IMG/VR virus record: IMGVR_UViG_3300046167_000798
Source of the DNA: a virus
Taxonomy: Duplodnaviria; Caudoviricetes
DNA: 64,000 nt
Direction: 5' to 3' (one strand)
Shown: piece after piece, positions 4,742 through 43,865 of the stretch
How the letters are laid out: each line of letters begins with the position of its first letter
Numbering within the stretch: position 1 is the stretch's first letter
Translations under genes and position numbers: made by a program
Notes under the pieces: generated by a model
Databases searched by the model: none
What the model was told of the DNA's origin: nothing
Seen by the model: only the letters and a program-made list of their open reading frames with translations

Positions 4742-6547
4742 TTAAAATGGTAACTTAGCACCTATCATAAACGAATTCATTATTGGTACAAACTCATTAC
4801 TACTATAAATTATCGTCCACCCTGCATTGAACGAAAAACTTTTTGTTAATTGTATTGTGAAGGAATTTGCAAGAATCCCTATAAAATCTTTTGATGTTGA
4901 TGAAAAGGCATCGAATCCCTCAACTTTTTCTGTATAAGATAATGGGTTTTGTGCACCAATCAATGCTGGTGTGTACATTATTCTATCGTTTATTTTTACC
5001 ATATTTGTGTAAAGAACATTATATCCCATAGTACCCATTTTTGGCATTGTATTTCCAAGTGCATCTTTACCAAACATAAACGAATAACTAATACCCAATC
5101 CAACAGTTCCATACTTACCCATAGGTTTCATTCTACTCAAAGATAATGTAGTTGAGTTCATCTGATAATTTCTCATATAAGATAGATTTGCTGCATCTAC
5201 CCAAGTTACTTGATAATTTTCATTCAAACTTACTTTACTTCTACCCAATGATAATCCAACTTGTTTCATATTATCATATATTTGTAAGTTTGCTGTATTT
5301 GTTATATCACCATAGATTGATGCTTGTGATGCTCCTATTGCAAGTACTTGGTTGTATTCTCTTGTTAGAGCTTGCATTGACATTATATCTGCTTTCAATA
5401 CTATTGGCATAAATTTCTTTTTCTTTTCTTCTTCCTCTTCCTCATCTTCTTCCTCATCTTTTTCTTCTTCCTCTTCTTCCTCTTCCTCATCTTCTTCTTC
5501 CTCTTCCTCTTCCTCATCTTCTTCCTCTTCTTCTTCTTTTTCTTCCTCTTCCTCTTCTTCATCCTTTTCTTCTTCCTCTTCCTTTTCTTCTTCCTCAGAT
5601 TCTTCTTCTTTATCTTCTTCACTATCTTCATCCGATTCATCAGAATCATCATCAGAATCATCATCACCATCAGAATCATCATCAGAGTCATCATCTCCAT
5701 CTCCATCTGAATCATCATCGGAATCTCCATCAGAGTCATCATCACCATCACCATCTCCATCTCCATCACCATCGGAATCAGAATCACTATCTCCATCGGA
5801 ATCAGAATCCCCATCCCCATCTCCATCTCCATCTCCATCACCACCATCAGAACCATCTCCATCACCATCTCCATCTCCTCCTCCATCACCATCGGAATCA
5901 CCAGAGCCACCATCTCCATCACCATCACCTCCATCAGAACCATCGCCTCCACCATCAGAGCCATCGCCACCACCATCGGAATCACCTCCTCCATCAGAAC
6001 CATCTCCTCCAGAATCACCACTTCCTCCACCATCAGAATCAGAACCTCCACCATCTCCACCGGAATCTCCTCCACCATCAGAGCCACTTCCTCCACTGTC
6101 TCCACCAGAGTCTCCACTTCCACCACCATCAGAACCTCCACCGCCAGAATCTCCACTACCACCTGATGAACCACTACCACTTGAATCAGAACCACTACCA
6201 CTTGAACCACTTGAACCTGAGTTAGTGTTATTGGTATTATTGGTTGCGTTGTTTGCGGTGTTATTAGCGTTATTGGTTGCGTTACTTGCAGATGAACAAG
6301 GTGAAAGTGCAGCCCACCATGCATATTTCTGAACTAACCATTGTTGGAGTTCACCATTAGTATATTGTGCGTATGTGAATAATTTAGCTTCGTTATAGAA
6401 TGCAACGATAGCTGAACCACTTGTGAAATCAGCGGTTACCACTTGTACTTCACCAGTACATCTGTCTACAAATGTCTGTGTGAAGGTTTGCCCATAACTA
6501 AGATTAGTGATGAACCAAAACGCAAGTATCGATAGTAGTTTTTTCAT
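4742..6547 (-). CDS. Secreted/outer-membrane protein: small Cys-pair head, ~290-aa N/S/G/D/E low-complexity stalk, C-terminal beta-barrel-like domain
   Basis: Signal peptide; low-complexity middle; ~220-aa C-terminal region of alternating hydrophobic strands ending in Phe (AKLPF). Confidence 0.75.
   Translation of the reverse strand: MKKLLSILAFWFITNLSYGQTFTQTFVDRCTGEVQVVTADFTSGSAIVAFYNEAKLFTYAQYTNGELQQWLVQKYAWWAALSPCSSASNATNNANNTANNATNNTNNTNSGSSGSSGSGSDSSGSGSSGGSGDSGGGGSDGGGSGDSGGDSGGSGSDGGGDSGGDGGGSDSDGGGSGDSGGDGSDGGGDSDGGGDGSDGGGDGSDGGDGDGDGGSGDSDGDGGGDGDGDGDGSDGGDGDGDGDGDGDSDSDGDSDSDSDGDGDGDGDGDDDSDGDSDDDSDGDGDDDSDDDSDGDDDSDDDSDESDEDSEEDKEEESEEEEKEEEEEKDEEEEEEEKEEEEEEDEEEEEEEEDEEEEEEEEEKDEEEDEEEEEEKKKKFMPIVLKADIMSMQALTREYNQVLAIGASQASIYGDITNTANLQIYDNMKQVGLSLGRSKVSLNENYQVTWVDAANLSYMRNYQMNSTTLSLSRMKPMGKYGTVGLGISYSFMFGKDALGNTMPKMGTMGYNVLYTNMVKINDRIMYTPALIGAQNPLSYTEKVEGFDAFSSTSKDFIGILANSFTIQLTKSFSFNAGWTIIYSSNEFVPIMNSFMIGAKLPF
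5410..6300 (-). repeat. Coding low-complexity repeat tract (NNAT, SG, GD, SD, poly-E, poly-K)
   Basis: Degenerate TCA/TCC/TCT/CCA trinucleotide runs on + strand; synonymous codons vary. Confidence 0.95.
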
Positions 6548-6550
6548 TCA

Positions 6551-7270
6551 TTAGTTTGGAAATATTTTTTTTCTAATCATTCTTGCTACTATTCTTGCTG
6601 AAGCCGTTTCTAATGCTTTTCTGGTAGTTACTCCAATTGCTGATTGTCTGAAGTTTATTTCCTCCAAATCTAATCCCAGCAAACCTTCTTGAGTTTTTAC
6701 CGTATTTGCCTCACCGAGGCCAGAACCTACAAAGTAAGTACCATTCTCTGCATTAGTGAAACGAACTTGTAAACCCAAACGAGTTGTTTGAGTTTGTTTT
6801 GAACCATCTTTTAAAGATAGAACTTCATCTTCTGAAACTGAGAAATCATAAATCTCTATTGTAACGAAATATTCCGCCAACATTATTTTACCCATTCCAT
6901 AAACTTCATTTTGAGAAACACCTTTTCTTGATGCAACCCATTGTGATTTCATTCTATTTTTAATCTCTGATTTTTCTTCTACGAACTCAAATCGGTTTGT
7001 CCAATCTAAGTACTCTATTACCATATTGGTAACACCTAATCCTATTCTTGCATCTTTTAAATCTGGCCACATTTCGTAAACCACATCAGATGCAGAGATA
7101 TTGATTAAAGCAATTGGAATCGTTTCACCCCAATAATCAGATACATCATCAATAGATTTCTTTTTTTCGAATTCTGCTTGATATGTTTCTGCTTTTATCT
7201 TACCAACAGTTTGTGCAATAGTATTTTGTGTGAATAATACACATAAAATTAAAATAAATATATTTTTCAT
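6551..7270 (-). CDS. CsgG/HfaB-like secreted protein
   Basis: Signal peptide; GLGVTNMVIEYLDWTNRFEFVEEK, FVTIEIYDF, RLGLQVRFTNAENG pattern of CsgG fold. Confidence 0.65.
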   Translation of the reverse strand: MKNIFILILCVLFTQNTIAQTVGKIKAETYQAEFEKKKSIDDVSDYWGETIPIALINISASDVVYEMWPDLKDARIGLGVTNMVIEYLDWTNRFEFVEEKSEIKNRMKSQWVASRKGVSQNEVYGMGKIMLAEYFVTIEIYDFSVSEDEVLSLKDGSKQTQTTRLGLQVRFTNAENGTYFVGSGLGEANTVKTQEGLLGLDLEEINFRQSAIGVTTRKALETASARIVARMIRKKIFPN

Positions 7271-7371
7271 TTTTTATCCTTCATATGATTGGTTAAGTTT
7301 GGGTACATATCTAAAAATGCCTTTGTTAACCAATCATCGATTTTGATTATTATTTCTATAAGTTTTTTCAT
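7267..7371 (-). CDS. 34-aa hypothetical peptide
   Basis: Manual: MKKLIEIIIKIDDWLTKAFLDMYPNLTNHMKDKK*; ATGA overlap with the next gene. Confidence 0.55.
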   Translation of the reverse strand: MKKLIEIIIKIDDWLTKAFLDMYPNLTNHMKDKK

Positions 7372-7373
7372 AT

Positions 7374-7571
7374 TTAACTTCCTAGTGTATCAAATATGCC
7401 GAAAGTTGCGTTATCAACTGCTGATGGGTTCATAATGATATGGGTTATAATAGTACCCAAACCAAGAACAAACATCACCAATAATACTGCCAACCATACC
7501 TTTACAATAACGTCTACTACTTTGTAGTCTGACATTCTATCTCTAAAGATTTCTGTAAGTGTTGTAATCAT
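7374..7571 (-). CDS. Small single-TM protein
   Basis: Hydrophobic VIVKVWLAVLLVMFVLGLGTIITHIIM. Confidence 0.65.
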   Translation of the reverse strand: MITTLTEIFRDRMSDYKVVDVIVKVWLAVLLVMFVLGLGTIITHIIMNPSAVDNATFGIFDTLGS

Positions 7572-7607
7572 TGTTTTTTTTAATTCTCCAATTTTTAATG
7601 TTATACG

Positions 7608-7847
7608 TTAGTGGGTATCCTTAATATGTTTAGGTAATCTCCATCCATGTACTCTCATTTGCCAAGCATACCACCCAGCAAATCCAAAGAACTGTACTAT
7701 CCATCCACCTGCCAATAAATCTGCAGTTAAATCTCCAGCTTGGATTCTATCACCTAATAATAAAAAGTAAGCATTTAAATAAACTATACCGATTATAAAT
7801 CCGATACCTTGTCCATTTAGTTTCCACCATTTTTTGAAACTACTCAT
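7608..7847 (-). CDS. Small two-TM membrane protein
   Basis: Two hydrophobic segments, basic termini. Confidence 0.65.
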   Translation of the reverse strand: MSSFKKWWKLNGQGIGFIIGIVYLNAYFLLLGDRIQAGDLTADLLAGGWIVQFFGFAGWYAWQMRVHGWRLPKHIKDTH

Positions 7848-7865
7848 TTTTCTCCTTTGTTTAAT

Positions 7866-8162
7866 TTACCAATCAATTTCTTCTTCTTTTTCTTTTTTCT
7901 TTTCAACAGGAACTTCTTTTATTATAGTTTTTGTTTCTGTCTTTTGTTCTGGTATGTTTACTACGATTGTAGGCCCTTCTACATTTACTGATTGATTGTT
8001 TTCTTGTACAACCTCAGTTTGTGGTTCTGAATCATCTTCTATTCCTACAAATGATTTAACCTCATCTATAAAAACACCACCCAATGTAGTTAGTATTATA
8101 CCAACTCCAGCTATTATTTGATTCTTTATCTGTGAAAAGAATCCTTCTTTTTTTTCACTCAT
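7866..8162 (-). CDS. Single-TM protein with charged C-terminal tail
   Basis: TM IIAGVGIILTTLGGVFI; TIIKEVPVEK tail. Confidence 0.7.
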   Translation of the reverse strand: MSEKKEGFFSQIKNQIIAGVGIILTTLGGVFIDEVKSFVGIEDDSEPQTEVVQENNQSVNVEGPTIVVNIPEQKTETKTIIKEVPVEKKKEKEEEIDW

Positions 8163-8293
8163 AATTTTGCTCTCCTTTTTTGTCTACATTCTTTACAATC
8201 ACATGGTTTGTGTTTACATACTGTTATATCTGTTGTAAGGATACACCATGTACAAAACACACCAAACCCAATTAAACATGCAGTGCTTAACAT
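8159..8293 (-). CDS. 44-aa Cys-rich membrane peptide
   Basis: Manual: MLSTACLIGFGVFCTWCILTTDITVCKHKPCDCKECRQKRRAKL*; ATGA overlap. Confidence 0.55.
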   Translation of the reverse strand: MLSTACLIGFGVFCTWCILTTDITVCKHKPCDCKECRQKRRAKL

Positions 8294-8294
8294 T

Positions 8295-8672
8295 TTAATT
8301 TACTACAAAAGACTGGTTTCCTAATATATTATGAAACTCATCTGTTAATTGAATTAGATAACCACTTTTCTCTAAAGATGCAACATATACTTTAAGAAGG
8401 TTATCACCCTCACCAGCTGTTATCATCTCTTGAGAGATTAGTTCATTGTTCATACCATGTCTAATCTTTATTCTGTATTTACCATCTAATGGTAATTTTA
8501 CATTCATTGCAACTCTATCAGTTACGATAGTGTTTTCTAATTTAATACCAATCAATTCTTTAATCTGTAAAGATTGTGGTACTTCTTGGTCTGGATAAAG
8601 TGTTACTAAATCATCATCTTGGTAACAACCCATCATTAAAACCAAACTAAGTAATGTTAATATTTTTTTCAT
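8295..8672 (-). CDS. Lipoprotein with T9SS C-terminal-domain-like Ig fold
   Basis: Lipobox MKKILTLLSLVLMMGC; GDNLLKVYVASLEKSGYLIQL...SFVVN resembles Por secretion tail. Confidence 0.6.
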   Translation of the reverse strand: MKKILTLLSLVLMMGCYQDDDLVTLYPDQEVPQSLQIKELIGIKLENTIVTDRVAMNVKLPLDGKYRIKIRHGMNNELISQEMITAGEGDNLLKVYVASLEKSGYLIQLTDEFHNILGNQSFVVN

Positions 8673-8689
8673 TTTTTGTTTCCTTTTTA

Positions 8690-10336
8690 TTATTGTATTA
8701 TAAAATTAATTTGTGTTCCATCTGCTTTCACACCTTCTTTTACTCTAAACGAAATTAAACCCGATGTATTTTCGATTGTTTCTAATGGTGTAAATACTAA
8801 TTTGTATGGTGTTCCTTGTTTAACAGTTGCACTAACGTTTTGGTCAAATGAACCAACTCTTACTAATCCATCTTGAACTATATTAGAGAAGTTTGTCATG
8901 TCATTACCAGTATCGAATATTACATTCTCTAATGAAAGTACGTTAGGGTCATATACTATATTGAACTGAGAACCAACCATTCCTTCAATATCTGAATTGA
9001 TAGAAAAGATTACTTGTCCATCTTTTATTTCAGATATTAAATCTATATTTGCTGTTTCTGTTGAACTAAATTTACTACCAGCTGCCATACTCATTCTAGC
9101 TTGTGATGATTGTGATGATGTTGCCTTTTCACCACTATTAACTGTTGGCTCCCATGAGTGAGAGAAGTTTACATCACCAACTAAACCATGTGCTAAATCA
9201 ATTGTTTTTGTTGAAACATCTGAATCAAGTGGTGTGAATGATTTAGCGAATGTTACTGTATTGTTAGTAACTGCACCATAAGTAGATTCAATACCACTAT
9301 AATCTTCTGTTTTTCCATCTTGTGTGATTCGGTTTGTATTACCACTTGTTACACCTTGTAGGTAAGCAAGTATCTCATATGAATCTTGGAAATCAACAAC
9401 ACCACCATCACCAACAACATCACCCATTATATCTTGAATGAAATAATCAAATGTAGTTGAACCACCACTTGGACCAGAACTTGCTCCAATTGCTTCAGCG
9501 AATACTAATGCTAAATCAGCTACGGTTACAACCTCATCTAAATAAGTTGCATCTTCGGCTAAGTTTGCTTCAGCAGTATAAGTTACGTTGTTTTCTAAAC
9601 CACTTACAGATGCTTGTCCACTTTCATCAAAAGTACCAGTTGCAACTGATTCACCTGCACCATTCTTAATAGTATAAGAGTAATCTGTTTTAGCTGAATT
9701 TGCTGTTTTAAGGTTAATAGTAAATGTACCAGCATTACCACCCTCGATACCACTTAGTGATTGTGTAGATGGTGATTTAATAGTTTGAATTTTTGTTCCA
9801 TCTGCTTTTTGGTAGTTTGCCCAATTCACTTTAATGATATTGTTGTAGTTATCATACCCACTACCAAACTTATCCTTTACTTTGAAGCTATACTTTACAA
9901 ATTCTCCACCATCTTCGTATGCAGCTGAGGTTTGGATTGTAGTTCTCTCTACACTCCAATCAGCAGAAGTAGAATAGGAAGCATTTCCTGCTTCATCTTT
10001 CCACCAAGTGTATTGTACATCCATATCATCTTCTGATGTATTTGCTTTTGGATTAAACTTATATCCAGTCCAATTGTTTCTGGCATAAGATGCACCTGTT
10101 GGTGCTTGTGAGGTACTTGAGATGTAAGATAACAATTTGTTGTTATATTCGAAATCAAACTGAGCCAATGTCAAATCTCCTCCATCTTGTTTGTTGTATT
10201 GGAACTTCATAATTAAAGTATCCCCTACTTTTGTTACTGTATTTACTGGACTATAATTTATCTCAGCGGGGTCATTCTGACCAGATACAGATAGTGTAAA
10301 AAATACACTAATTAATAATAATAAAATTTTTTTCAT
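8690..10336 (-). CDS. Secreted cohesin-like / Ig / dockerin-like / cohesin-like protein
   Basis: Signal peptide; KVGDTL..QFDFEYNNKLLSY (cohesin-like); VVTVADL..GDVVGDGGVVDFQDSYEIL (dockerin/EF-hand-like); GSQFNIVYDPNVLSL (cohesin-like). Confidence 0.7.
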   Translation of the reverse strand: MKKILLLLISVFFTLSVSGQNDPAEINYSPVNTVTKVGDTLIMKFQYNKQDGGDLTLAQFDFEYNNKLLSYISSTSQAPTGASYARNNWTGYKFNPKANTSEDDMDVQYTWWKDEAGNASYSTSADWSVERTTIQTSAAYEDGGEFVKYSFKVKDKFGSGYDNYNNIIKVNWANYQKADGTKIQTIKSPSTQSLSGIEGGNAGTFTINLKTANSAKTDYSYTIKNGAGESVATGTFDESGQASVSGLENNVTYTAEANLAEDATYLDEVVTVADLALVFAEAIGASSGPSGGSTTFDYFIQDIMGDVVGDGGVVDFQDSYEILAYLQGVTSGNTNRITQDGKTEDYSGIESTYGAVTNNTVTFAKSFTPLDSDVSTKTIDLAHGLVGDVNFSHSWEPTVNSGEKATSSQSSQARMSMAAGSKFSSTETANIDLISEIKDGQVIFSINSDIEGMVGSQFNIVYDPNVLSLENVIFDTGNDMTNFSNIVQDGLVRVGSFDQNVSATVKQGTPYKLVFTPLETIENTSGLISFRVKEGVKADGTQINFIIQ

Positions 10337-10844
10337 AATAAGTCCTTAATAATTTGCCTCACATACCTTTTTTAAAGCTATACTAGCAGTTTGTTGATTA
10401 AATGTTCCGTCTTGTGCAACTACAAGAGTACTAGTAGAAATCGTTTTACTCGTTCCTTTTTGAGTAGTACGTTTTTTAACCTTTTCCCTTGACTTCTAAT
10501 TCACCAATTGCTATAATCTGCGTTAGTGAAACATCTTTGTGAAACACCGCAACTGATGTTCCAATATTTTTTATATCAAAAAAGACCAATCTTACATTTA
10601 TTTGCGTAGATGCTTGGTCTGATAAATCATAATCTAAATCCATTAATAATTCTTCGAGGATATTCTTTACACCAACTGCAAGGTTTCGGTTACCTGCAAA
10701 CTTACCCATACGGATTTCGTTGGTTACTGAACCGACCTTTATGAGGTTGTTATCACTTGTGTGAATCTCGTTTGAACCAGTCGGTAATAAAACAAAGATA
10801 CACAAAATGAATATTTTAAATACATTTAATGTAGCGTACTTCAA
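10333..10844 (-). CDS. Second CsgG-fold-like exported protein (~169 aa after repairing two indels; TTG start)
   Basis: GGAG upstream of TTG; removing one base at 10480-10485 and one at 10357-10358 restores an ATGA overlap with 10336; LAVGVKNILEELL and FNQQTASIALKK match segments of 6551..7270. Confidence 0.55.
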
Positions 10845-11908: not shown

Positions 11909-12889
11909 TTATGATAAATCTACTTGTGATAATACTGAATCCCAATTATCAAACTTGATTCCTTTATCATCAATATATGCAACTGCTCTCGGTTTTTGTG
12001 AAGTTACTTTAGAAACGTATTGATTTAAATCATGTTCTTTTAACCATTCCCAAATTAATTGAGTACCACTTTGTCCATTTACTAAACCTCTATCTTTTCT
12101 CGCTTTTGCAGAATATACAATTACAACATATTTCTCAGATAGTTTTTGTAATGCTTCTCTTGCACCTTCTACTGGTTCATCATAAACAGTTCCATCGTGG
12201 TATCCTTTTGAGTTCTTGTGAATAACACCATCGAAATCTACACCGATGTTTACTAATTCATCAGGATAAGAATGTTCTCTTGTTGCAGATGCACCACCTT
12301 GTCTATTTAGTAATTCTAAATCTTCTGGTTTGTTTTGGAAAATAGGAGGACAAACTTTACCACTACCATGTGTAAGTTGATAAGTAAGTAATAATGTAAG
12401 TACTTCTGATGTGTGATAATACTCAGCACCTAATACAACTTCTGATAAGTTGTTAATCTTTTCTGGTATTGGAGCTGATGTAATCATTGCTATTTGCATT
12501 CCTCTTGATTCACCATCTTCTAATGCTCTCATGATATCAATTGATTTACCACTTGATGAGATACCAAGAATTAATGTTTTCTTTAATTGTTCTGGTGTTT
12601 GAGATACTGTTCTCTGTCTTACCCAATGAACCATCCAATCATCAAACGAAGAATCGTTGATTAGAGAGGTTGCTACAATGGCACTACCAGGTGCCTGTGC
12701 ATTCTTTGTTCCATTTGATAACCTTGAGATATCAGTTGCTGCATGGTCTGCAACTCCTAAGTTTCCACCATGTCCTAATACAAATATATCAACACAATCG
12801 TTGAATTTTTCTTGTATATCATTCCACTCTTTTGTATTGATGACTTCTAAGAATTTATCACCAATGTTTTCGAAATTTAATCCTGCCAT
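11909..12889 (-). CDS. SIS sugar-phosphate isomerase fused to HAD phosphatase
   Basis: IFVLGHGGNLGVADH and GISSSGKS (GmhA/SIS-like); VDFDGVIH and YIDDKG (HAD). Confidence 0.8.
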   Translation of the reverse strand: MAGLNFENIGDKFLEVINTKEWNDIQEKFNDCVDIFVLGHGGNLGVADHAATDISRLSNGTKNAQAPGSAIVATSLINDSSFDDWMVHWVRQRTVSQTPEQLKKTLILGISSSGKSIDIMRALEDGESRGMQIAMITSAPIPEKINNLSEVVLGAEYYHTSEVLTLLLTYQLTHGSGKVCPPIFQNKPEDLELLNRQGGASATREHSYPDELVNIGVDFDGVIHKNSKGYHDGTVYDEPVEGAREALQKLSEKYVVIVYSAKARKDRGLVNGQSGTQLIWEWLKEHDLNQYVSKVTSQKPRAVAYIDDKGIKFDNWDSVLSQVDLS

Positions 12890-12891
12890 AA

Positions 12892-13554
12892 TTATTTATT
12901 TTGTTTTAATTTATATATTATTTCTGCTGTTTGGAATTCAAAAGGAGTGTTGATATCTACTCCCTCGTATTCATTAAGTATAATAAAATTTGGTTTATCA
13001 CCAATAACTCGTGATTTATTTTTCATTATATTCTTATCTACAATTGTTATACCATAATTTATCATTTCAATATCAGGTAAATCCTGTGAATTTGGTACAT
13101 TATTTAAATCATAGTTAATAGGTTTACCATCTAACCACAAATGTCCTTTTACCAAAGAAGTTGAAGTTAAACTATCACATTCTGAATTCATGAATTGGTC
13201 TATAGCCTCTTCATGTTTTTCAGAACTAATGAAAGGAGAACATACAGGTGCCAGAAATATATAATCAGTATCAGTTGTTTTACCAATATGACCATGAAAC
13301 TCAGAATTAGAAGCTTCACTACTTGCAAAGTACTCTTCTCTTTTCTTTGTTTTTACACCATATGATTTTCCTATTTCAATCATTTTATCACAATCACTAT
13401 TGACTATGATTTCATCTATATTACTAACCTTTAATAAAGTTTGTAATTTTAAATCCAATAAGGTTGTATCACCAAATGGTTTAATATTTTTATTAGGTAC
13501 TCTCTGAGAACCTTTACGAACCGCAACTACTGCTGTAACTTTTCCTTGTTTCAT
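12892..13554 (-). CDS. neuA: CMP-sialic/ulosonic acid synthetase (acylneuraminate cytidylyltransferase family)
   Basis: RKGSQRVPNKNIKPF, IIVNSD, DINTPFEF. Confidence 0.85.
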   Translation of the reverse strand: MKQGKVTAVVAVRKGSQRVPNKNIKPFGDTTLLDLKLQTLLKVSNIDEIIVNSDCDKMIEIGKSYGVKTKKREEYFASSEASNSEFHGHIGKTTDTDYIFLAPVCSPFISSEKHEEAIDQFMNSECDSLTSTSLVKGHLWLDGKPINYDLNNVPNSQDLPDIEMINYGITIVDKNIMKNKSRVIGDKPNFIILNEYEGVDINTPFEFQTAEIIYKLKQNK

Positions 13555-14246
13555 AACTGTCCTCCATTTACATCAATTACAGAACCATTAAGATAGTTTG
13601 AAAGTTCTGAACATAAGAATACAATTGGCCCTACTTGGTCATCAACTGTACCTAATCTTCTCAATGGAATATTTTCACATAGTTTATCTTGTTCTTCTTT
13701 TGTCATCGATTGTTCTAACATTGGAGTAAGTGTTTGAGATGGACAAGTACAATTTACATGAATACCTCTTGGTCCTAATTCATGAGCAAGTTGTCTTGTT
13801 AATCCAATAATACCTGCCTTACTAGAAGTATAATGAACTCCACTTACAATACTTTTATTTCTACCAGCAATTGAAGAAACATTTACTACCCTACTTCCAC
13901 TTTTCATTAATGGTATGGATTTTTTAATTATGTAATAAAAGGAACGAAGATTTGTATCAATTACAGAATCCCATTCATCCATTTCTATTTCTTCTATTTT
14001 TTTACAAAAGTTTATACCAGCAACATTTATTAAGAAATCAATACCATTATGTTGAAGGCCTAAAATATCAGTTATTGCATCAAAGAATGTATCTATACTT
14101 TCCTTACTTGAAATATCTACTCCATCTTTTCTTGAAACTCTGATTACTTTTGCACCAAGTTCTTCAAACTTATTTGCTACTCCTAATCCAATTCCTTTAG
14201 ATGAACCAACAACTAAAGCTATTTTATTTTGAAAATTAATCTTCAT
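13551..14246 (-). CDS. SDR family oxidoreductase
   Basis: GSSKGIG, INVAGI, NVSS, YTSSK, PSQTLTPM. Confidence 0.9.
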   Translation of the reverse strand: MKINFQNKIALVVGSSKGIGLGVANKFEELGAKVIRVSRKDGVDISSKESIDTFFDAITDILGLQHNGIDFLINVAGINFCKKIEEIEMDEWDSVIDTNLRSFYYIIKKSIPLMKSGSRVVNVSSIAGRNKSIVSGVHYTSSKAGIIGLTRQLAHELGPRGIHVNCTCPSQTLTPMLEQSMTKEEQDKLCENIPLRRLGTVDDQVGPIVFLCSELSNYLNGSVIDVNGGQL

Positions 14247-14661
14247 ATATGTGTTCTACATCTGGTTTTGTAATTGCTAATCTTGCCGCTGGTTTATCAC
14301 CAACTGCTGTAATCTTATGCCATGTGTTAGCCTTTACAACAATTATATCTCCTTGTTTAACTCTACTAACTTCTTCTTCAATTTGCCATTCATATTCTCC
14401 TTCAAGAACAACCCAACACTCATCAGCATCAGGATGATAATGTAATCTGTTTCCTTCACCAGGATTCTGTTTGATTATAACTCCACCAAATCTATCATTA
14501 TAAACTACTCGAACTGCCCAAGAATCTTTATAACCTAATTCTTTTTCTAGTGTTGGAATGTTTATTGTTTTTGGATTTTCAAATTCATGACCAGCAACTA
14601 ATAAGGAATTAGTTACTCCATCATCTTTTAATACTCGTTTTACATTACTATCTTGTTTCAT
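14236..14661 (-). CDS. Cupin-domain protein
   Basis: HYHPDADECWVVLEG, GDIIVVKANTWH; start placed at MKQDS because the upstream ATG overlaps the promoter. Confidence 0.85.
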   Translation of the reverse strand: MKQDSNVKRVLKDDGVTNSLLVAGHEFENPKTINIPTLEKELGYKDSWAVRVVYNDRFGGVIIKQNPGEGNRLHYHPDADECWVVLEGEYEWQIEEEVSRVKQGDIIVVKANTWHKITAVGDKPAARLAITKPDVEHIYED

Positions 14662-14679
14662 ATTAAGGTATTTGTTATA

Positions 14680-14711
14680 CAAATATACGAAATTTATTTG
14701 AATTATACAAA
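14680..14711 (-). promoter_or_regulatory. Class A Bacteroidota-type promoter (-33 TTTG, N20, -7 TATATTTG)
   Basis: Matches TTTG-N19-21-TAnnTTTG consensus. Confidence 0.8.
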
Positions 14712-15431
14712 TAAATCATCAAATATTTTTCGTTCATATGCCGTTATTGCTGAGTTATATCCCGCATTATATATTTTTTTACCTGCTTCTGTAAAGTATT
14801 TTACTGCAGTTTTATGTGTTGCATTCATTCTATTAAACTCAACTTCACCATTTCCAATGGATGCATGGTAATCAGGATGGAAATGATTTATATCACCTTC
14901 TGATGTATTTGTTGTGTTAGTTGCTGTTATCCAATTAGAATCACAACCTATTACATACACTTCATCAAAGTTCATATAATATGCCAATTGTAGTGCAACA
15001 TTCATAGTAGTTCCACTTTTATCCAATCTTTCTACGGCATTAGTTGAAAACTGTCTATCATCACCACATGGATATTCTGTAATAGAATCTAAATAAATTG
15101 TTTTTTGAGGAAGTTTTCCTTCACCTCTTGTTTCAATAGCATCTTTAAATTTTCTCCAAATTATAGGAGTTGTTTTTTCTTCATTTGATGCATTCAATAT
15201 GCTCTTAGACCACTTATGACCCCACTTAGAATCTTGACAATTAGAGGAAGTGAATACATAGTGAGTAGGTCTCCATTTAGTTGTTGGATATAATAACTCA
15301 ATACGATTCATTCCAATAGAGTATTCATTTTCCAACAAATCTAAGTTCATATTATTTAAAGAGGGTCCGTTACCTACTAAAAATATTCTTTTTCCTATTC
15401 CGATATCTTTTAAATCAAATATTACATTCAT
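14703..15431 (-). CDS. DUF115/MptE-like, Cst-II-like sialyltransferase-family protein
   Basis: IFLVGNGPSL, GMNRI, SGTTMNVALQLAYYMNFDEVYVIGCD; start at 15431 from ATGA overlap. Confidence 0.7.
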   Translation of the reverse strand: MNVIFDLKDIGIGKRIFLVGNGPSLNNMNLDLLENEYSIGMNRIELLYPTTKWRPTHYVFTSSNCQDSKWGHKWSKSILNASNEEKTTPIIWRKFKDAIETRGEGKLPQKTIYLDSITEYPCGDDRQFSTNAVERLDKSGTTMNVALQLAYYMNFDEVYVIGCDSNWITATNTTNTSEGDINHFHPDYHASIGNGEVEFNRMNATHKTAVKYFTEAGKKIYNAGYNSAITAYERKIFDDLFV

Positions 15432-15886
15432 AACTTTAAAAATTCTATATAATCTGAACAAACTCCATAAACATCAGTTGGTTTCCAATTCTCAATATCA
15501 TATCGACTAAGTAAAGGTATGATACATTTTTCGTTTGCCGTTAATATATTATGAGCCCAAATATGATTATCACTTATTATTGTGTACTCCTCTTTTTGAT
15601 GATAGAATATCTTTAACTGCATAGGGTTTGAGTCAACTTGTATTAGTTCAGTTAAAGAATCAAAATCTTTACAATGAATCCATAAGTGGTTTCTTCTTTC
15701 AACTAACCACTCTAATTCAATTGGATAAATAGGTTCATCATGTCCTAAATAAAAACCATCTTCATCCTTCCATATATCAATTTCAACATCATAACCTAAT
15801 GATATAGCCTTATCTATATAATCAGGAGTATTTTCAAGTTGTGGATTTTCTCCATTTATATTTCCTCTATGTGATATTAATTTCAT
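15428..15886 (-). CDS. PLC-like/glycerophosphodiester phosphodiesterase-like protein
   Basis: ISHRGN, EN, GYDVEIDIW, LGHD, GVCSD. Confidence 0.75.
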   Translation of the reverse strand: MKLISHRGNINGENPQLENTPDYIDKAISLGYDVEIDIWKDEDGFYLGHDEPIYPIELEWLVERRNHLWIHCKDFDSLTELIQVDSNPMQLKIFYHQKEEYTIISDNHIWAHNILTANEKCIIPLLSRYDIENWKPTDVYGVCSDYIEFLKL

Positions 15887-16209
15887 AGTTCTTCTATCCT
15901 TTTTGCTCTATCATCTATTAATAAATCAAATAAAGGCTTTTCACCACAACTTAAGTGGTGGTACTTACATTCCCAAGAATCTAACTGTTCTTTTGTTAAA
16001 TCAAAATAATTAGCACCTGATAAAGAACCTCTTGCGGTATAGTAAGTAACTTCCCAACCTTCATCATATAGTTTATTTATCTTATCTATGTTTTCTTTAC
16101 TAGGAATTGCCAATTCATAGATTCTATCATTTTCATAAAAACAAATAGTTTCATCTATATCAACGAATACTTTTTGTTTTCCTGGATTATTTTTTCTGTG
16201 TACTTTCAT
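15883..16209 (-). CDS. Small HAD phosphatase (capsule-biosynthesis type)
   Basis: FVDIDETIC, YYTARG, KP, LIDDRA. Confidence 0.8.
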   Translation of the reverse strand: MKVHRKNNPGKQKVFVDIDETICFYENDRIYELAIPSKENIDKINKLYDEGWEVTYYTARGSLSGANYFDLTKEQLDSWECKYHHLSCGEKPLFDLLIDDRAKRIEEL

Positions 16210-17017
16210 GATATCGTTTCCAATAGTTATAACATTCTACTGCATCTTGTTCTGATTTTACTTGACCAGAGTTAAGTATTGTTACCCATGCTTCAAAACT
16301 TTCTAATTCACTTGGTGTTCCAAATACTGTTACAAATTCTGTATCATAATAACCTACTCTAAGTTTCTTTTCAACTAATAAATTATAAGCAAGTGTTACA
16401 TAATATTCACCAGCATAATTTATATCTCTATCTATACTTTCCTTGAAACATTCTTTCATAACTCCACCATTTTTAAAATAGTAAACACCAGTTGAAGCAT
16501 GCTCATCCATAGGATTATCAGTATAACATTCTTTTTCTTTAATCTCTTCCATTAAAATTCCATCTGTTTTTAGGAAAGCCATCTTAGTTGAGTTTAAAGT
16601 ATGTGGATGTAATCCTGAATGAGTAAGGATACAACCATCTAAGTTATTATCCTTAACATATTTTTCAAAATTAGATTTATTCCATATCAATGGGTTATCA
16701 CAATAGCACACAATAACTTCTTCATTATCATCTACTAAATCTAAGAAAGGCATTACAGTAAATATAGGGCCTTTTTTATGATTTGGTAATGAAACTACTT
16801 TAGATTTTGGTGATAACTGATTTAGAATATTTTTCATATCAGTATTTTCTATATGTTGGTCATTACATATAAAAACAATTTCATCATTTTCATCAAACAT
16901 ATCTAGGATATATTCTATGATTCTTTTACCATTTACTTTTATGAGTGGTTTTGGGTCTTCGTATCCTTTTTGTACAAATCTATTACCTGTACCTGCCATC
17001 GGAATAATTACTTTCAT
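16187..17017 (-). CDS. Sugar-phosphate nucleotidyltransferase
   Basis: IIPMAGTGNRF, PKPLI, YCD, GEYYV, FGTPSEL. Confidence 0.85.
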   Translation of the reverse strand: MKVIIPMAGTGNRFVQKGYEDPKPLIKVNGKRIIEYILDMFDENDEIVFICNDQHIENTDMKNILNQLSPKSKVVSLPNHKKGPIFTVMPFLDLVDDNEEVIVCYCDNPLIWNKSNFEKYVKDNNLDGCILTHSGLHPHTLNSTKMAFLKTDGILMEEIKEKECYTDNPMDEHASTGVYYFKNGGVMKECFKESIDRDINYAGEYYVTLAYNLLVEKKLRVGYYDTEFVTVFGTPSELESFEAWVTILNSGQVKSEQDAVECYNYWKRYHESTQKK

Positions 17018-18375
17018 TTGTTTATTTTAATTCTATATTTTTCAGATTCCATATTCTTTAATTTATTTATTTCATCTGATGTTAAACAATTAGCGGTTAA
17101 ACCCACTTCTTCTTGTATATGTAACATATAATCATTTATTTGAGAATTATCATCTGGTAATATTGCTGCATCAGGATACAATATACAATTTTTATCAGTT
17201 TTATTAATATTATCTCTAAATGTTTTAAATGTTTTTGAATTCCGTATCAACCATTCTTTACATAGTTGATTTATTTTTAAACTATTATTAAATACTTCTG
17301 TAAAGGAATTACCACAACAAATTAATCCATGATTTTGTAAGAATATAATTTTTTCATTCACATTCATCGCTTCTGCCAATTCATCTCCAGGTGTTACATA
17401 ATCCACATAATCAAAATCATAATCCTCACATATCTCACTAATAACTTCTTTAGATTCCTTTGAACATAATATAGTGTTTACATATATAGGATGAGTGTGA
17501 TATACAATTCGTTGGTTTATCTTTTTATGAAAGTTTAATTCCATCGAAGGTCTTTCGTTATTATAAACTTTATCATTACCTGTTACAGAATATCCTCCCA
17601 ATATATGTACATCTGACATTGTTTTACCCGATGAGGTTATAATTACTTTATCTTTGAATTTATAAGATAGATTTCCACCAGCACCTTGTATAAGTTCATA
17701 TTCAAAAGATGATTTTCTACAACAGAGTAAAAAGTTTCTATGAAGATTGTAAAGTTTTTTAAGGGTTACCATCACTTCACATCCATATTCAGTTTTACAT
17801 TCGTATTCTAAATCTACTGATTTATCTTTTTTCTCTGTGAAGGTTACAATCACATCTGCATTTTCTTCTTGAGGGTGAATATATTTTATCTCATCCCCTT
17901 TTCTCATATCTATTGCAGATAATACCTGTTCTTTCGTGTATCCTCTTTTTTCAATATCTCTGTTTAACTTCCATTGATATTTTAAATTTTCTTCGGTTTT
18001 GATGTAGATGTTTAAATCAGCTCTATCACATAAATAAGAGTCATAAAGAGAATGCAATCCTTCATTTATGAATACATTATAATCAGGTTTAACTTGTACA
18101 TTATTTACAAACTTACCAGTATCGTGGTCATAGTGATTTCTATATACTGTTTTGTTTTCTAATAAATTAAATATTTGTTGTTTACCTAATTCTAAATTAT
18201 TAGCATCAGGATTTAAATGAGTTATATTTTTCCAATTGGAATCATTTCTTTCCCATTTATGTAAATCATCTCCTGATAGATGACATACATCATCAAACAG
18301 AAAAGATAAGAAAGTAGTAAGTGTAGTTTTTCCAACACCAGAACTACCTCCCACATTTATTAGTTTACTTACCAT
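17014..18375 (-). CDS. Phosphoribulokinase-like kinase fused to class II aldolase
   Basis: GGSSGVGKT, GDDLHKWER, LNPDAN, YDHDTG, EGLH, WKLNRDIEKRG (PRK pattern); GAGGNLS, PSME, HTH, LQNHG (class II aldolase). Confidence 0.8.
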   Translation of the reverse strand: MVSKLINVGGSSGVGKTTLTTFLSFLFDDVCHLSGDDLHKWERNDSNWKNITHLNPDANNLELGKQQIFNLLENKTVYRNHYDHDTGKFVNNVQVKPDYNVFINEGLHSLYDSYLCDRADLNIYIKTEENLKYQWKLNRDIEKRGYTKEQVLSAIDMRKGDEIKYIHPQEENADVIVTFTEKKDKSVDLEYECKTEYGCEVMVTLKKLYNLHRNFLLCCRKSSFEYELIQGAGGNLSYKFKDKVIITSSGKTMSDVHILGGYSVTGNDKVYNNERPSMELNFHKKINQRIVYHTHPIYVNTILCSKESKEVISEICEDYDFDYVDYVTPGDELAEAMNVNEKIIFLQNHGLICCGNSFTEVFNNSLKINQLCKEWLIRNSKTFKTFRDNINKTDKNCILYPDAAILPDDNSQINDYMLHIQEEVGLTANCLTSDEINKLKNMESEKYRIKINK

Positions 18376-19229
18376 CCTATTTCGTATATTTTTTTATTAA
18401 TATCTTTTTCAAAATATGGGTATCTAACAAATTCTTTCTTTTGACCTGTTGGAATATTTTGTTTGAAATCTTCAGTCCAATTCTGTGTCCAAGTTTCTCT
18501 TGATAATCCTTTAGAATGAGTACCACCCCACTTCCATGTAAAGTAGTTCCAAGCATGTCTAGGATAGATACCAACTCTTGAAGCTTGCCAAATACCAGTT
18601 TGTTCCCCATCATCAGGTCTTCTTTTTAAATCTTCAGTAATATTTCTATTTCCTGGTACATCTAGTGTAAGGCTGGGATTATTATTGTAAGTTATTCTAT
18701 GCATAATATCATCTACATAGGTTCTTTCTTTATTGTTTTGTATTGAACGAATAAGGTAATCAGCAAAATGATACTGAATTCCACAGAATCTTTCATCATA
18801 TATTCCAACCTTCTTTATATGTTCTGGTGAAAAACTGATAATATTATCACCATATCTACCTTGAACATAATCAAATTTTTCATGTAACTTTAATAAATTA
18901 GAACACCAATTTTTATCACATATTGCATCATTTTGGAATCCCACTACATAATCACAATTTGGTTTTGATAAATCTTTAAATCCATGTATTACTGCTTGAT
19001 TCCAACTTTCACTTAAATTACCATTTGACCAATCGGGTCTTCCTTCATTTCTTATGATTGTAACTTTATCAATATGTTCTTCTTTTAATTTTGTTGAAGT
19101 GTGATTACTGATAACAAATATCTCACCATTACATACAGTCATAAAATCAGATTGTAAAATGTAATCAATAGTTTCTGCAAGAATATCGTTTCTCTTATAT
19201 GTTATAATATACAGTTTTATTTTTTTCAT
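18369..19229 (-). CDS. GT2-like glycosyltransferase
   Basis: YIITYKR, WNQA, FQNDA, GIYDERF. Confidence 0.7.
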   Translation of the reverse strand: MKKIKLYIITYKRNDILAETIDYILQSDFMTVCNGEIFVISNHTSTKLKEEHIDKVTIIRNEGRPDWSNGNLSESWNQAVIHGFKDLSKPNCDYVVGFQNDAICDKNWCSNLLKLHEKFDYVQGRYGDNIISFSPEHIKKVGIYDERFCGIQYHFADYLIRSIQNNKERTYVDDIMHRITYNNNPSLTLDVPGNRNITEDLKRRPDDGEQTGIWQASRVGIYPRHAWNYFTWKWGGTHSKGLSRETWTQNWTEDFKQNIPTGQKKEFVRYPYFEKDINKKIYEIGW

Positions 19230-20797
19230 TCTACTTCCAATATTTCTTTCATTATATTGTCAATTGATACTCTATTATCATTTAAGTAAATTTCTCTTAC
19301 TAAATCTTCTTGTGGTTTTTGTTTATGATTACCATTAAATTCACTTTTAACTTCATCACTTACTTTTTTAAATTTATCATCACTTAATTTCTTATAAGAT
19401 TTTCTCCAACCATCTCTAAACCAAGTGAAACCTGTAATATGTAATTCTTTTAAATCATAACAAAGTAAATCCATTATTGTCATTGTACCTGAATTAGGTC
19501 TTGTACCTAACATTCTTGCCACCCCAATATAATAATCAGTATCAGCACAATGAAATGATAGATTCCATTTTTTGTTTTCTTTTTCAAATGAAGTTACATC
19601 ACTATAAAACGAATTAATATATTTTGGATACGGACAAGAAACAAACACATTATCATCTTTCATTTCTTTGTAAAAAATATCACCACAACATTCTGGTGAT
19701 GTATGTAAACAATGATAATGAATATCAGTTCTTGAACCTAGGTCGGATTCTAATCCCTCTTCAATTGGAAATCCTTTATTAACCCTAACTACAATATCAT
19801 AATCATCTATTTCTTTTCCTTTACCACTTCCTACAAGTGAAGGTGATGGGCCTACAATTATAACTTTTTTATCTTTAAGTAAATCATTATATTGAGTATC
19901 ATATTTTCCCTTACTTCTTATTGATAACCAATTTTCATAAGTAAAACCCAATGGATTATCATTTGAAGGTTCTGAATAAATTTTATCTTTATACATATTA
20001 TGAATTGATTGTTTTAGTTGTGGGTTTCTATCATATTGATGAACGATTACAAATGGTTCTCCTTTTTGATTTCTAATTAAATCATCTACGATTGGAGTAG
20101 GTTCTAATAATTTATCACCAAAGTGGTCTTTCTTAATTAGAACAGTTCCAAGTTGTGTTGCAAATCCATCTTCTTGTGGTGTGAATTGTACAATATCTTT
20201 ATATTGAGTTTGGTTAATTAAAACATTATATGCTGCTTGGTCTGATAACTGGTCTGGATTCGAACTTGTTAAACTCCATCGATAAATGTTTATAAACAAA
20301 TCTCTGATGTATTCTTTATCACCAGCAATAGTTCCTGCACAATGTGATGTTTTATTTTGTAACCATTCCCATTCCATAGGGAAAGATGTTCCTGCATTTG
20401 TAACTGCCCATTCATCATCTTTAAATGTAATACATTCTGAACAAGCTATAATTGGTTTAGTTTTGTTCTTATTTAACCAATGAGATGGATTTGTTTGAAA
20501 TATAACATCTTTAACATCAGTCCAAATAATTCTATCACAATCAATATCTTTTAGAAGATGGTGTAAATCTAAAAATCTCTGTAAAATAATATGTTGATTT
20601 AACTGAGATTGATAAACATCGAAATGATTTGATTTTAAATAATTGATTACATCTTGTGATACATCATATACTAACATCATTTTACCACCAGTATAACCAC
20701 TTCTTTGAATTGATTCTACCCAAGGTTCGATATCTGATTTGGAGTATTTAGTAATACATCCTACTAGTAAATCTTTTTTAGAATATGGTTTATTCAC
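19226..20797 (-). CDS. Two-domain glycosyltransferase: GT-A domain + GT29-like sialyltransferase domain
   Basis: WTDVKDVIFQ, SDQAAYN, HQYDR; VIIVGPSPSLVGSGKGKEIDDYDIVVRVN (sialylmotif L-like); PNSGTMT..LHITGF (motif S-like). Confidence 0.7.
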   Translation of the reverse strand: MNKPYSKKDLLVGCITKYSKSDIEPWVESIQRSGYTGGKMMLVYDVSQDVINYLKSNHFDVYQSQLNQHIILQRFLDLHHLLKDIDCDRIIWTDVKDVIFQTNPSHWLNKNKTKPIIACSECITFKDDEWAVTNAGTSFPMEWEWLQNKTSHCAGTIAGDKEYIRDLFINIYRWSLTSSNPDQLSDQAAYNVLINQTQYKDIVQFTPQEDGFATQLGTVLIKKDHFGDKLLEPTPIVDDLIRNQKGEPFVIVHQYDRNPQLKQSIHNMYKDKIYSEPSNDNPLGFTYENWLSIRSKGKYDTQYNDLLKDKKVIIVGPSPSLVGSGKGKEIDDYDIVVRVNKGFPIEEGLESDLGSRTDIHYHCLHTSPECCGDIFYKEMKDDNVFVSCPYPKYINSFYSDVTSFEKENKKWNLSFHCADTDYYIGVARMLGTRPNSGTMTIMDLLCYDLKELHITGFTWFRDGWRKSYKKLSDDKFKKVSDEVKSEFNGNHKQKPQEDLVREIYLNDNRVSIDNIMKEILEVE

Positions 20798-43833: not shown

Positions 43834-43865
43834 CAAATATACGAATTATTTTTCAAATATCCAAA
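43834..43865 (-). promoter_or_regulatory. Class A promoter (TTTG-N20-TATATTTG) upstream of polB
   Basis: Perfect consensus. Confidence 0.82.

What the first reader, a model, noticed from the sequence alone, without database searches (positions are those of the whole stretch)
11909..18375. Phosphoribulokinase-aldolase fusion with isomerase, phosphatases and nucleotidyltransferase: candidate novel NDP-ketose pathway
Seen: the kinase carries PRK-type motifs (DDLHKWER, LNPDAN, YDHDTG, EGLH, WKLNRD..RG) and is fused to a class II aldolase; nearby are a SIS-HAD fusion, a small HAD, a GDPD-like enzyme and an NTP-transferase. Known: the heptose pathway runs isomerase, kinase, phosphatase, nucleotidyltransferase, but with a GHMP/PfkB kinase; PRK adds a C1 phosphate to ribulose-5-P; class II aldolases act on ketose-1-phosphates. 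Inference: a Calvin-cycle-type kinase repurposed for glycan donor synthesis (e.g. NDP-ribulose/xylulose or a longer ketose), not carbon fixation.
Basis: partly seen in the sequence, partly recalled or inferred. Interest (0 to 1): 0.68.

Follow-up and report, generated by a model that had tools for sequence, protein, structure and literature searches.

The report
Phage phosphoribulokinase sugar-activation cassette
A large marine phage carries a swappable set of enzymes, led by a Calvin-cycle-type kinase fused to an aldolase, that most likely turns ribulose phosphate into an activated five-carbon sugar for glycan building, by a route I found no paper describing.

Summary
Gene 17014-18375 (-) is a conserved fusion of a phosphoribulokinase (PRK)-type kinase and a class II aldolase, in a T4-like large phage. 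The kinase keeps all PRK Ru5P-binding and catalytic residues, three of which uridine kinases lack; the tree alone is inconclusive. The conserved core is PRK~aldolase, nucleotidyltransferase, small HAD and mini-GDPD (22/22, 14/22, 21/22 independent viral clusters). The SIS-HAD is not part of it (1/22): a sister phage with a 99%-identical SIS-HAD lacks exactly 14711-19220, and SIS-HAD has its own promoter-like site. The heptose-like reading with an isomerase is therefore wrong. Two near-complete PRK-bearing viral genomes lack RuBisCO. Cyanophages carry the module without PRK, consistent with RuBP as substrate. Bacterial copies sit with GtrA, GT2 and GT-C, which ties the set to glycan donors. Best reading: Ru5P to RuBP, then C4 epimerisation and 5-dephosphorylation, giving a nucleotide-activated pentulose (possibly L-xylulose). 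Product, order of steps and acceptor are inferred, not shown. The scan noted this cassette before on other bacterial, phage and giant-virus DNA. Added here: the soluble fusion form, its exact indel boundaries and a candidate transferase (18369-19229).

The parts
17014..18375 (-). PRK-type kinase (res 1-190) fused to a class II aldolase-fold domain (res ~215-453); core of the cassette
16187..17017 (-). Sugar-phosphate nucleotidyltransferase ('NTP-A'), orthologue of the N-terminal domain of the double nucleotidyltransferase of S-SM2 and of the bacterial cassette; core
   Evidence: only PDB hit 4EVW
15883..16209 (-). Small HAD phosphatase (DxD motif; PHROG 1238, likely BcbF/AfhF-like); core in 14 of 22 clusters
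15428..15886 (-). Miniature GDPD-fold phosphodiesterase with intact catalytic residues; core
18369..19229 (-). Soluble GT2-like protein, candidate transferase for the donor; inside the indel and travels with GDPD modules
   Evidence: weak GT2 hit E 4e-4; among 54 SIS-HAD loci 15 have it with GDPD, 0 without GDPD, 1 has GDPD alone (loci not independent)
14703..15431 (-). MAF_flag10/MptE-like, sialyltransferase-like protein; inside the indel but not conserved with the core (ATG at 15431 overlaps the GDPD stop)
14711..19220 (.). Extent of the 4.5-kb cassette absent from a closely related phage contig (L154)
   Evidence: blastn blocks end at window 19221 and resume at 14710; no PRK-aldolase on that 68.5-kb contig
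14670..14712 (-). Repeated promoter-like motif (TTG-N~21-CGTATATTTG, Bacteroidota-type by my recall) upstream of the separate cupin-SDR-CMP-synthetase-SIS~HAD unit
   Evidence: 11 copies of the motif on the - strand, none upstream of the PRK gene between 28133 and 14689
11909..14682 (-). NOT part of the PRK cassette: cupin, SDR, CMP-sugar synthetase-like and SIS~HAD, a separate CMP-sugar module
   Evidence: of 53 SIS loci, 42 have a CMP-synthetase, 25 a GT29 and 1 PRK; 1 of 22 PRK clusters has SIS

Best explanation
The 4.5-kb block is a mobile, all-soluble cassette that makes a nucleotide-activated five-carbon sugar, most likely a pentulose, for phage-directed glycosylation. Step 1 (well supported): the PRK domain phosphorylates ribulose 5-phosphate at C1 to give RuBP. 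Step 2 (inferred): the metal-dependent aldolase-fold domain cleaves and re-forms the C3-C4 bond of the ketose 1-phosphate, most plausibly inverting C4 (D-ribulose to L-xylulose). Step 3 (inferred by analogy): the HAD removes the 5-phosphate so the sugar can close to a furanose 1-phosphate; steps 2 and 3 may run in either order. Step 4 (speculative): the nucleotidyltransferase and the mini-GDPD together activate it, for example NDP on C1, then GDPD-catalysed release of NMP through a 1,2-cyclic phosphate, then the 2-phosphate, then NDP-2-ketofuranose. A soluble GT (here probably 18369-19229) uses the donor on a virion or host-surface glycan; the acceptor is not shown.
For: PRK identity: best NCBIfam model PRK07429 E 4e-50 versus udk 2e-21. 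The ten best PDB sequence hits and 19 best Foldseek hits are PRKs. Ru5P residues named for M. hungatei PRK (His55, Arg59, Tyr98, His100, Lys151, Arg154; PMC5241800) correspond, by spacing and by alignment to cyanobacterial and CBB-operon PRKs, to H39, R43, Y82, H84, K136, R139; four uridine kinases have Y, Y/F and R/V at H39, H84 and K136. No RuBisCO in two near-complete T4-like genomes that carry the fusion. The complete cyanophages S-SM2 and Bellamy have aldolase, NTase, HAD and GDPD but no PRK, as do psbA-bearing contig fragments, while a 98%-complete PRK-bearing genome lacks psbA. The aldolase keeps GGN, S249-G250, E279, H293, H295, H349, the FucA-type Glu plus three metal His; bacterial orthologues score best against RhaD-type models. 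Bacterial copies sit with GtrA, GT2 and GT-C, and their PRK is fused to a GT-C domain. Precedents: HAD 5-dephosphorylation of RuBP to cyclised Ru1P (PMC9700705) and of Araf-1,5-P2 (PMC13326640). NTase plus GDPD recur together with other upstream enzymes.
Against: No enzyme has been assayed. The tree does not reject kinase plus uridine kinases as sisters (AU p 0.28), and no cyanobacterial or plant PRK could be included. The subfamily has its own invariant W41, W48 and H53 and lacks the second Arg, so the substrate may not be Ru5P. All aldolase models score far below cut-off and the S-SM2 orthologue prefers a different model, so the stereochemistry is open. The HAD is missing next to 8 of 22 clusters. 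Most phage copies have a single NTase, so it would have to act twice in the cyclic-phosphate route. No organism with this cassette has a glycan structure that I could link to it; the plasmid cassette is in only 2 of 5,426 E. coli genomes. The GT2-like gene sits beside only 1 of 22 PRK clusters.
Confidence: 0.55

Rival explanations
1. The donor is an NDP-1-pentulose (or other NDP-linked phosphoester) that transfers sugar-1-phosphate units into a phosphodiester-linked, teichoic-acid-like glycan, with the GDPD trimming or recycling rather than moving phosphate.
For: PRK puts phosphate on C1, the non-anomeric carbon, which a nucleotidyltransferase could use directly, as CDP-polyol synthetases do (established knowledge). 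One NTase is enough in most phage copies. Weak IspD similarity.
Against: Bacterial copies use a GT2/GtrA/GT-C lipid-phosphate-sugar route, which transfers glycosides. The GDPD is almost obligatory (21/22), more than expected for a trimming enzyme.
Confidence: 0.17
2. The aldolase truly cleaves (Ru1P to DHAP plus glycolaldehyde, as in haloarchaea) or dehydrates (MtnB-like), and a C2/C3 fragment or deoxy-diulose is what gets activated.
For: The FucA-type active site is intact. Weak hits to the haloarchaeal Ru1P aldolase (E 2e-7) and MtnB (E 9e-6) models. The HAD plus aldolase pair is known to do this to RuBP (PMC9700705).
Against: No reductase or dehydrogenase travels with the core. DHAP is freely available from glycolysis, so spending ATP to make it is hard to justify.
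Confidence: 0.13
3. The end product is an aldopentose or branched pentose (for example L-xylose, L-lyxose or an apiose/hamamelose-type sugar), with the aldolase fold or the GDPD doing an unrecognised isomerisation.
For: The HAD and NTase resemble, distantly, the AfhF/AfhE enzymes that make UDP-arabinofuranose. The same chassis also pairs with a RuBisCO-like protein and a cupin.
Against: No anomeric kinase or isomerase is in the core. The NTase does not find RB69-type genes among 50,697 phage records at E 1e-5.
Confidence: 0.1
4. The kinase is a uridine/nucleoside kinase for nucleotide salvage, as JGI annotates it, or a metabolic gene feeding host carbon fixation.
For: Automated names 'uridine kinase'. 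The AU test does not reject sisterhood with uridine kinases.
Against: PRK-specific residues are invariant and uridine kinases form their own 100/100 clade on a long branch. Fixed linkage to NTase and GDPD. No RuBisCO, and PRK is absent precisely from the cyanophage copies.
Confidence: 0.05

Closest known systems
Class II (cyanobacterial/plant/archaeal) phosphoribulokinase, including the 'cyanobacteria-specific PRK' of PDB 9QKO and M. hungatei PRK 5B3F
   Same: Fold, P-loop, Asp-His dyad and Ru5P-binding residues.
   Different: Only ~190 residues, with the C-terminal PRK domain replaced by an aldolase. Its own W41/W48/H53 signature, no RuBisCO partner, and a score below the PRK07429 cut-off (171 vs 236 bits).
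Phage NDP-D-arabinofuranose pathway (A5P isomerase, AfhE kinase/pyrophosphorylase, AfhF HAD; RB69, DLP3, HY126; PMC13326640)
   Same: Starts from Ru5P in a T4-like phage, passes through a 1,5-bisphosphate, and uses a small 1XPJ-like HAD and an NTase.
   Different: There the kinase is an anomeric APH-like kinase acting on an aldose. Here it is PRK acting on a ketose, an aldolase fold replaces the isomerase, and a GDPD is added. No sign of DNA modification was tested or seen.
ADP/GDP-glycero-manno-heptose pathway (GmhA, HldE/HddA, GmhB, HldC/HddC)
   Same: Kinase-phosphatase-nucleotidyltransferase logic.
   Different: The SIS gene is not part of the cassette, the kinase family differs, and an aldolase fold and a GDPD are present.
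Haloarchaeal non-carboxylating pentose bisphosphate pathway (RuBP phosphatase, Ru1P aldolase; PMC9700705)
   Same: A HAD and a class II aldolase act on RuBP without RuBisCO.
   Different: That route is catabolic, has no PRK, NTase or GDPD, and ends in DHAP and ethylene glycol.
Gtr-type three-component glycosylation (GtrA/GtrB/GtrC)
   Same: Bacterial orthologues of this cassette include GtrA, a GT2 and GT-C proteins.
   Different: The phage form here has no membrane component, and Gtr uses UDP-glucose.

Membership tests
Phosphoribulokinase | Ru5P-binding His/Arg/Tyr/His/Lys/Arg set and Asp-His catalytic dyad | tested here: met
   H39, R43, Y82, H84, K136, R139, D36 invariant
Phosphoribulokinase | Full-length score above the curated NCBIfam cut-off | tested here: not met
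   170.9 vs 236 bits; the protein lacks the PRK C-terminal domain
Phosphoribulokinase | Groups with PRKs, not uridine kinases, in a tree | tested here: inconclusive
   Not nested in the UDK clade, but AU p 0.28 for UDK sisterhood; no cyanobacterial sequence in the tree
Phosphoribulokinase | ATP + Ru5P to RuBP activity | not testable with these tools
   needs an assay
Uridine kinase | Uridine-kinase residues at the positions of H39, H84 and K136 | tested here: not met
   four UDKs have Y, Y/F and R/V there; udk model 77 vs 220 bits
Class II aldolase/adducin superfamily | Three metal-binding His, catalytic Glu and phosphate pocket | tested here: met
   H293, H295, H349, E279, N235, S249
FucA, RhaD, AraD, MtnB or Ru1P aldolase specifically | Score above the family cut-off | tested here: not met
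   all far below cut-off
NDP-heptose pathway | GmhA isomerase genetically coupled to the kinase | tested here: not met
   1/22 and 1/53 co-occurrence; separate indel and promoter-like site
NDP-heptose pathway | GHMP or PfkB kinase | tested here: not met
   the kinase is P-loop PRK/UK family
AfhE/AfhF NDP-arabinofuranose pathway | NTase fused to an APH-like anomeric kinase, plus A5P isomerase | tested here: not met
   stand-alone 276-aa NTase; no RB69-type hit
GDPD superfamily | TIM-barrel GDPD fold with His/Arg, ExD, His and Lys | tested here: met
   about 70-100 residues shorter than solved GDPDs, no Pfam hit
Gtr three-component system | GtrA flippase, polyprenyl GT2 and GT-C | tested here: not met
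   no membrane segments in the cassette genes of the window; met by the bacterial orthologues
Calvin cycle | RuBisCO in the same genome | tested here: inconclusive
   absent from two near-complete relatives; this window's own genome is not held

The most novel reading that the evidence does not exclude
The NTase + mini-GDPD + HAD trio is an undescribed general chassis that activates ketoses by moving phosphate from C1 to the anomeric C2 through a cyclic phosphate. Interchangeable front ends (PRK plus aldolase fold, aldolase alone in cyanophages, RuBisCO-like protein plus cupin, or none) set which ketose bisphosphate is used. This phage's version would make NDP-L-xylulofuranose and be the first identified source of a pentulose donor.
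Probability: 0.2. Interest if true: 0.82.

Novelty: new variant of a known kind. Interest (0 to 1): 0.57.

Why it matters
Xylulose occurs in bacterial O-antigens and capsules and in chlorovirus capsid glycans (PMC8707391, PMC11380512, PMC9614988). The E. coli O-antigen review reports no genes for an NDP-xylulose precursor in the relevant clusters (PMC7685785), so the donor route is open. This cassette is four or five small soluble enzymes, ideal for reconstitution, and would test that question directly. It would also show PRK and RuBP used for glycan biosynthesis rather than CO2 fixation, so viral or bacterial 'PRK/uridine kinase' calls should not be read as autotrophy or nucleotide-salvage markers. 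It also adds to the evidence that large marine phages swap sugar-donor cassettes at one hypervariable site.

Tried and rejected
SIS-HAD as entry enzyme: rejected by co-occurrence, the natural deletion and the separate promoter-like site. CMP-synthetase as the activating enzyme: rejected (1/22). No cultured phage carries the fusion (no match in 50,697 records). Linking the cassette to xylulose-containing serotypes failed: the blastn of the plasmid cassette found only 2 plasmids among 5,426 E. coli genomes, the Y. enterocolitica O:10 cluster as described has no such genes, and no Yersinia, Devosia or chlorovirus genome was reachable. Ten literature searches found no paper on this gene set (searches returned nothing); the library lacks most subscription journals, so absence is weak. 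A V. cholerae wav-cluster paper was not held. The tree could not settle the root or sister group. The aldolase-only cyanophage S-SCSM2R gene lies in another context and was not counted.
Full report
Setting. Nearly all long ORFs in the 64-kb window lie on the - strand at about 30% GC. The translations include what I recognise as a T4-like replication set (family B polymerase, clamp and clamp loader, helicase, RecA-like, NrdA/B, GroEL/ES); the single-strand binding protein is confirmed by PHROGs. Near-complete relatives that carry the same fusion encode T4-type gp23 capsid protein. An 11-copy promoter-like motif ending TATATTTG/A matches the Bacteroidota consensus as I recall it. So this is a large T4-like phage, probably of a Bacteroidota host, and the finding lies in its glycan island.

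Observation. The 453-aa gene at 17014-18375 has a PRK/UK domain and an Aldolase_II domain. The best kinase model is PRK07429 (E 4e-50) against udk (2e-21). The best solved relatives by sequence and by fold are cyanobacterial, plant and archaeal PRKs (model pLDDT 93.8). The search found 298 relatives, and the 120 listed all have both domains.

Is it PRK? The Ru5P and ATP residues listed for M. hungatei PRK (PMC5241800) and the Asp-His dyad (PMC9978339) correspond to D36, H39, R43, Y82, H84, K136 and R139. These are invariant in the fusion family and in bacterial GT-C-fused relatives, and they are shared with CBB-operon PRKs. Four uridine kinases differ at H39, H84 and K136. In the tree, uridine kinases form their own 100/100 clade and the window sits among aldolase-fused sequences near the GT-C-fused ones, but an AU test cannot reject sisterhood with uridine kinases (p 0.28). 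The case therefore rests on residues, profiles and structure. A private W41/W48/H53 signature marks the subfamily and leaves the exact substrate open.

What belongs together. In 22 independent viral clusters with enough flank, a nucleotidyltransferase is present in 22 (one has only the paralogue), the mini-GDPD in 21, the small HAD in 14, and SIS-HAD, CMP-synthetase and SDR in 1 each. From the other side, 53 SIS-bearing loci carry a CMP-synthetase in 42 cases, GT29 in 25 and PRK in 1. A close relative, L154, has a 99%-identical SIS-HAD and cupin and joins window 19221 directly to 14710. It lacks the GT2-like gene, PRK~aldolase, NTase, HAD, GDPD and the MAF-like gene. A promoter-like motif sits at that junction, in front of the cupin-SDR-CMP-SIS~HAD unit. 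Other relatives with the same flanks hold a HAD~NTase fusion plus GDPD in this region, without PRK or aldolase.

What it is for. In SAR86, an E. coli plasmid, Azospirillum brasilense and Hirschia baltica, the same enzymes lie with a GT2 and a further membrane protein, in the last three also with an annotated GtrA, and the kinase is fused to a membrane domain. That domain has GT87/Alg6/ALG3 hits in many of 465 relatives. This is lipid-linked sugar machinery, so the soluble enzymes most likely supply a glycosyl donor. The phage form has no membrane segment. Two near-complete PRK-bearing viral genomes and the SAR86 genome have no RuBisCO. S-SM2, Bellamy and psbA-bearing contigs carry aldolase, double NTase, HAD and GDPD without PRK. 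That fits RuBP as the true input, supplied by the host in cyanobacteria and by the phage elsewhere. The sample is small and related, so this is supportive and not proof.

Mechanism. Shown: the domain identities and intact active sites, namely FucA-type E279 with H293, H295 and H349, the GDPD fold and residues, and the HAD DxD motif. Inferred: PRK makes RuBP. FucA/RhaD-fold enzymes bind ketose 1-phosphates and break C3-C4; FucA is specific for the D-ribulose configuration and RhaD for the L-xylulose one (own knowledge). The bacterial orthologues and the window domain score best against RhaD-type models, though far below cut-off, so C4 epimerisation is my first guess. A HAD that removes the 5-phosphate has precedent for RuBP (PMC9700705) and for Araf-1,5-P2 (PMC13326640). 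Speculative: PRK puts phosphate on C1 while a ketoside donor needs it on C2. GDPD chemistry passes through cyclic phosphates (own knowledge), so NTase plus GDPD could move it. This would explain why the GDPD is near-obligatory and why many copies have two NTase paralogues, but most phage copies have one.

Wider chassis. The mini-GDPD has at least 584 viral relatives. Of 78 examined, 45 have only a different NTase among the enzymes I tested, mostly as a HAD~NTase fusion, and a few have a RuBisCO-like protein and cupin. The GT2-like gene next to the kinase travels with GDPD modules among SIS-HAD loci (15 together, 1 GDPD alone, 38 neither). In 23 other PRK loci a different GT-A-like family lies next to the kinase, usually just upstream. 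The transferase therefore varies between phages.

Novelty and verdict. I found no paper on this gene set, within a library that lacks most subscription journals. The scan's own notes describe the bacterial, phage and giant-virus forms repeatedly; these are unchecked and I used them as leads only. It works like known kinase-phosphatase-nucleotidyltransferase donor pathways but is a member of none. Observation confirmed, interpretation partly supported, new variant of a known kind, interest 0.57.

Noticed in passing
window 11909-14682 with 19226-20797: A separate, widespread phage module: SIS~HAD with a CMP-sugar synthetase and GT29, often a cupin and an SDR (in L007 also a DHQ-synthase-like gene). 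The SIS matches GmhA only weakly, and no ulosonate synthase was seen among the ORFs I annotated.
   Followed up: partly
L070:12653-14924; L084/L085 ~7000-9050: A RuBisCO-like protein next to a nucleotidyltransferase (and a cupin in L070) near the same mini-GDPD, in a psbA-bearing phage contig and in large virus contigs.
   Followed up: partly
L091:4634-6453 and about 40 similar loci; S-CAM9 (L151:3341-4726): A very common HAD~nucleotidyltransferase fusion, usually with the mini-GDPD and DUF7796-like proteins, and with no PRK or aldolase nearby.
   Followed up: partly
L004:7097-8011: An unnamed ~300-aa GT-A-like family next to the PRK fusion in 23 of 34 loci, absent from this window.
   Followed up: partly
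window 59298, 58839, 54986, 48735, 46794, 43843, 39187, 30802, 29176, 28133, 14689 (- strand): Eleven copies of a strongly conserved promoter-like motif (TTG-N~21-TTTCGTATATTTG/A) upstream of replication and metabolism genes.
   Followed up: partly
window 32828-35540: A TonB-dependent receptor-like gene split into two overlapping ORFs; other long genes also look split (polymerase 41292-43809), suggesting sequence errors or frameshifts.
   Followed up: no
window 4742-10844: A Gly/Asp/Ser/Glu low-complexity exported protein, a CsgG-like gene and neighbours with signal peptides.
   Followed up: no
L038:6022-14984: The full membrane-type cassette on a small E. coli IncR plasmid beside IS26, 100% identical over the tested stretch in a human-stool and a bullfrog isolate; a convenient laboratory model.
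   Followed up: partly
window 36791-38428 and 43846-45096: Two paralogous methyltransferase-like genes flanking the clamp, GroEL and polymerase genes.
   Followed up: no
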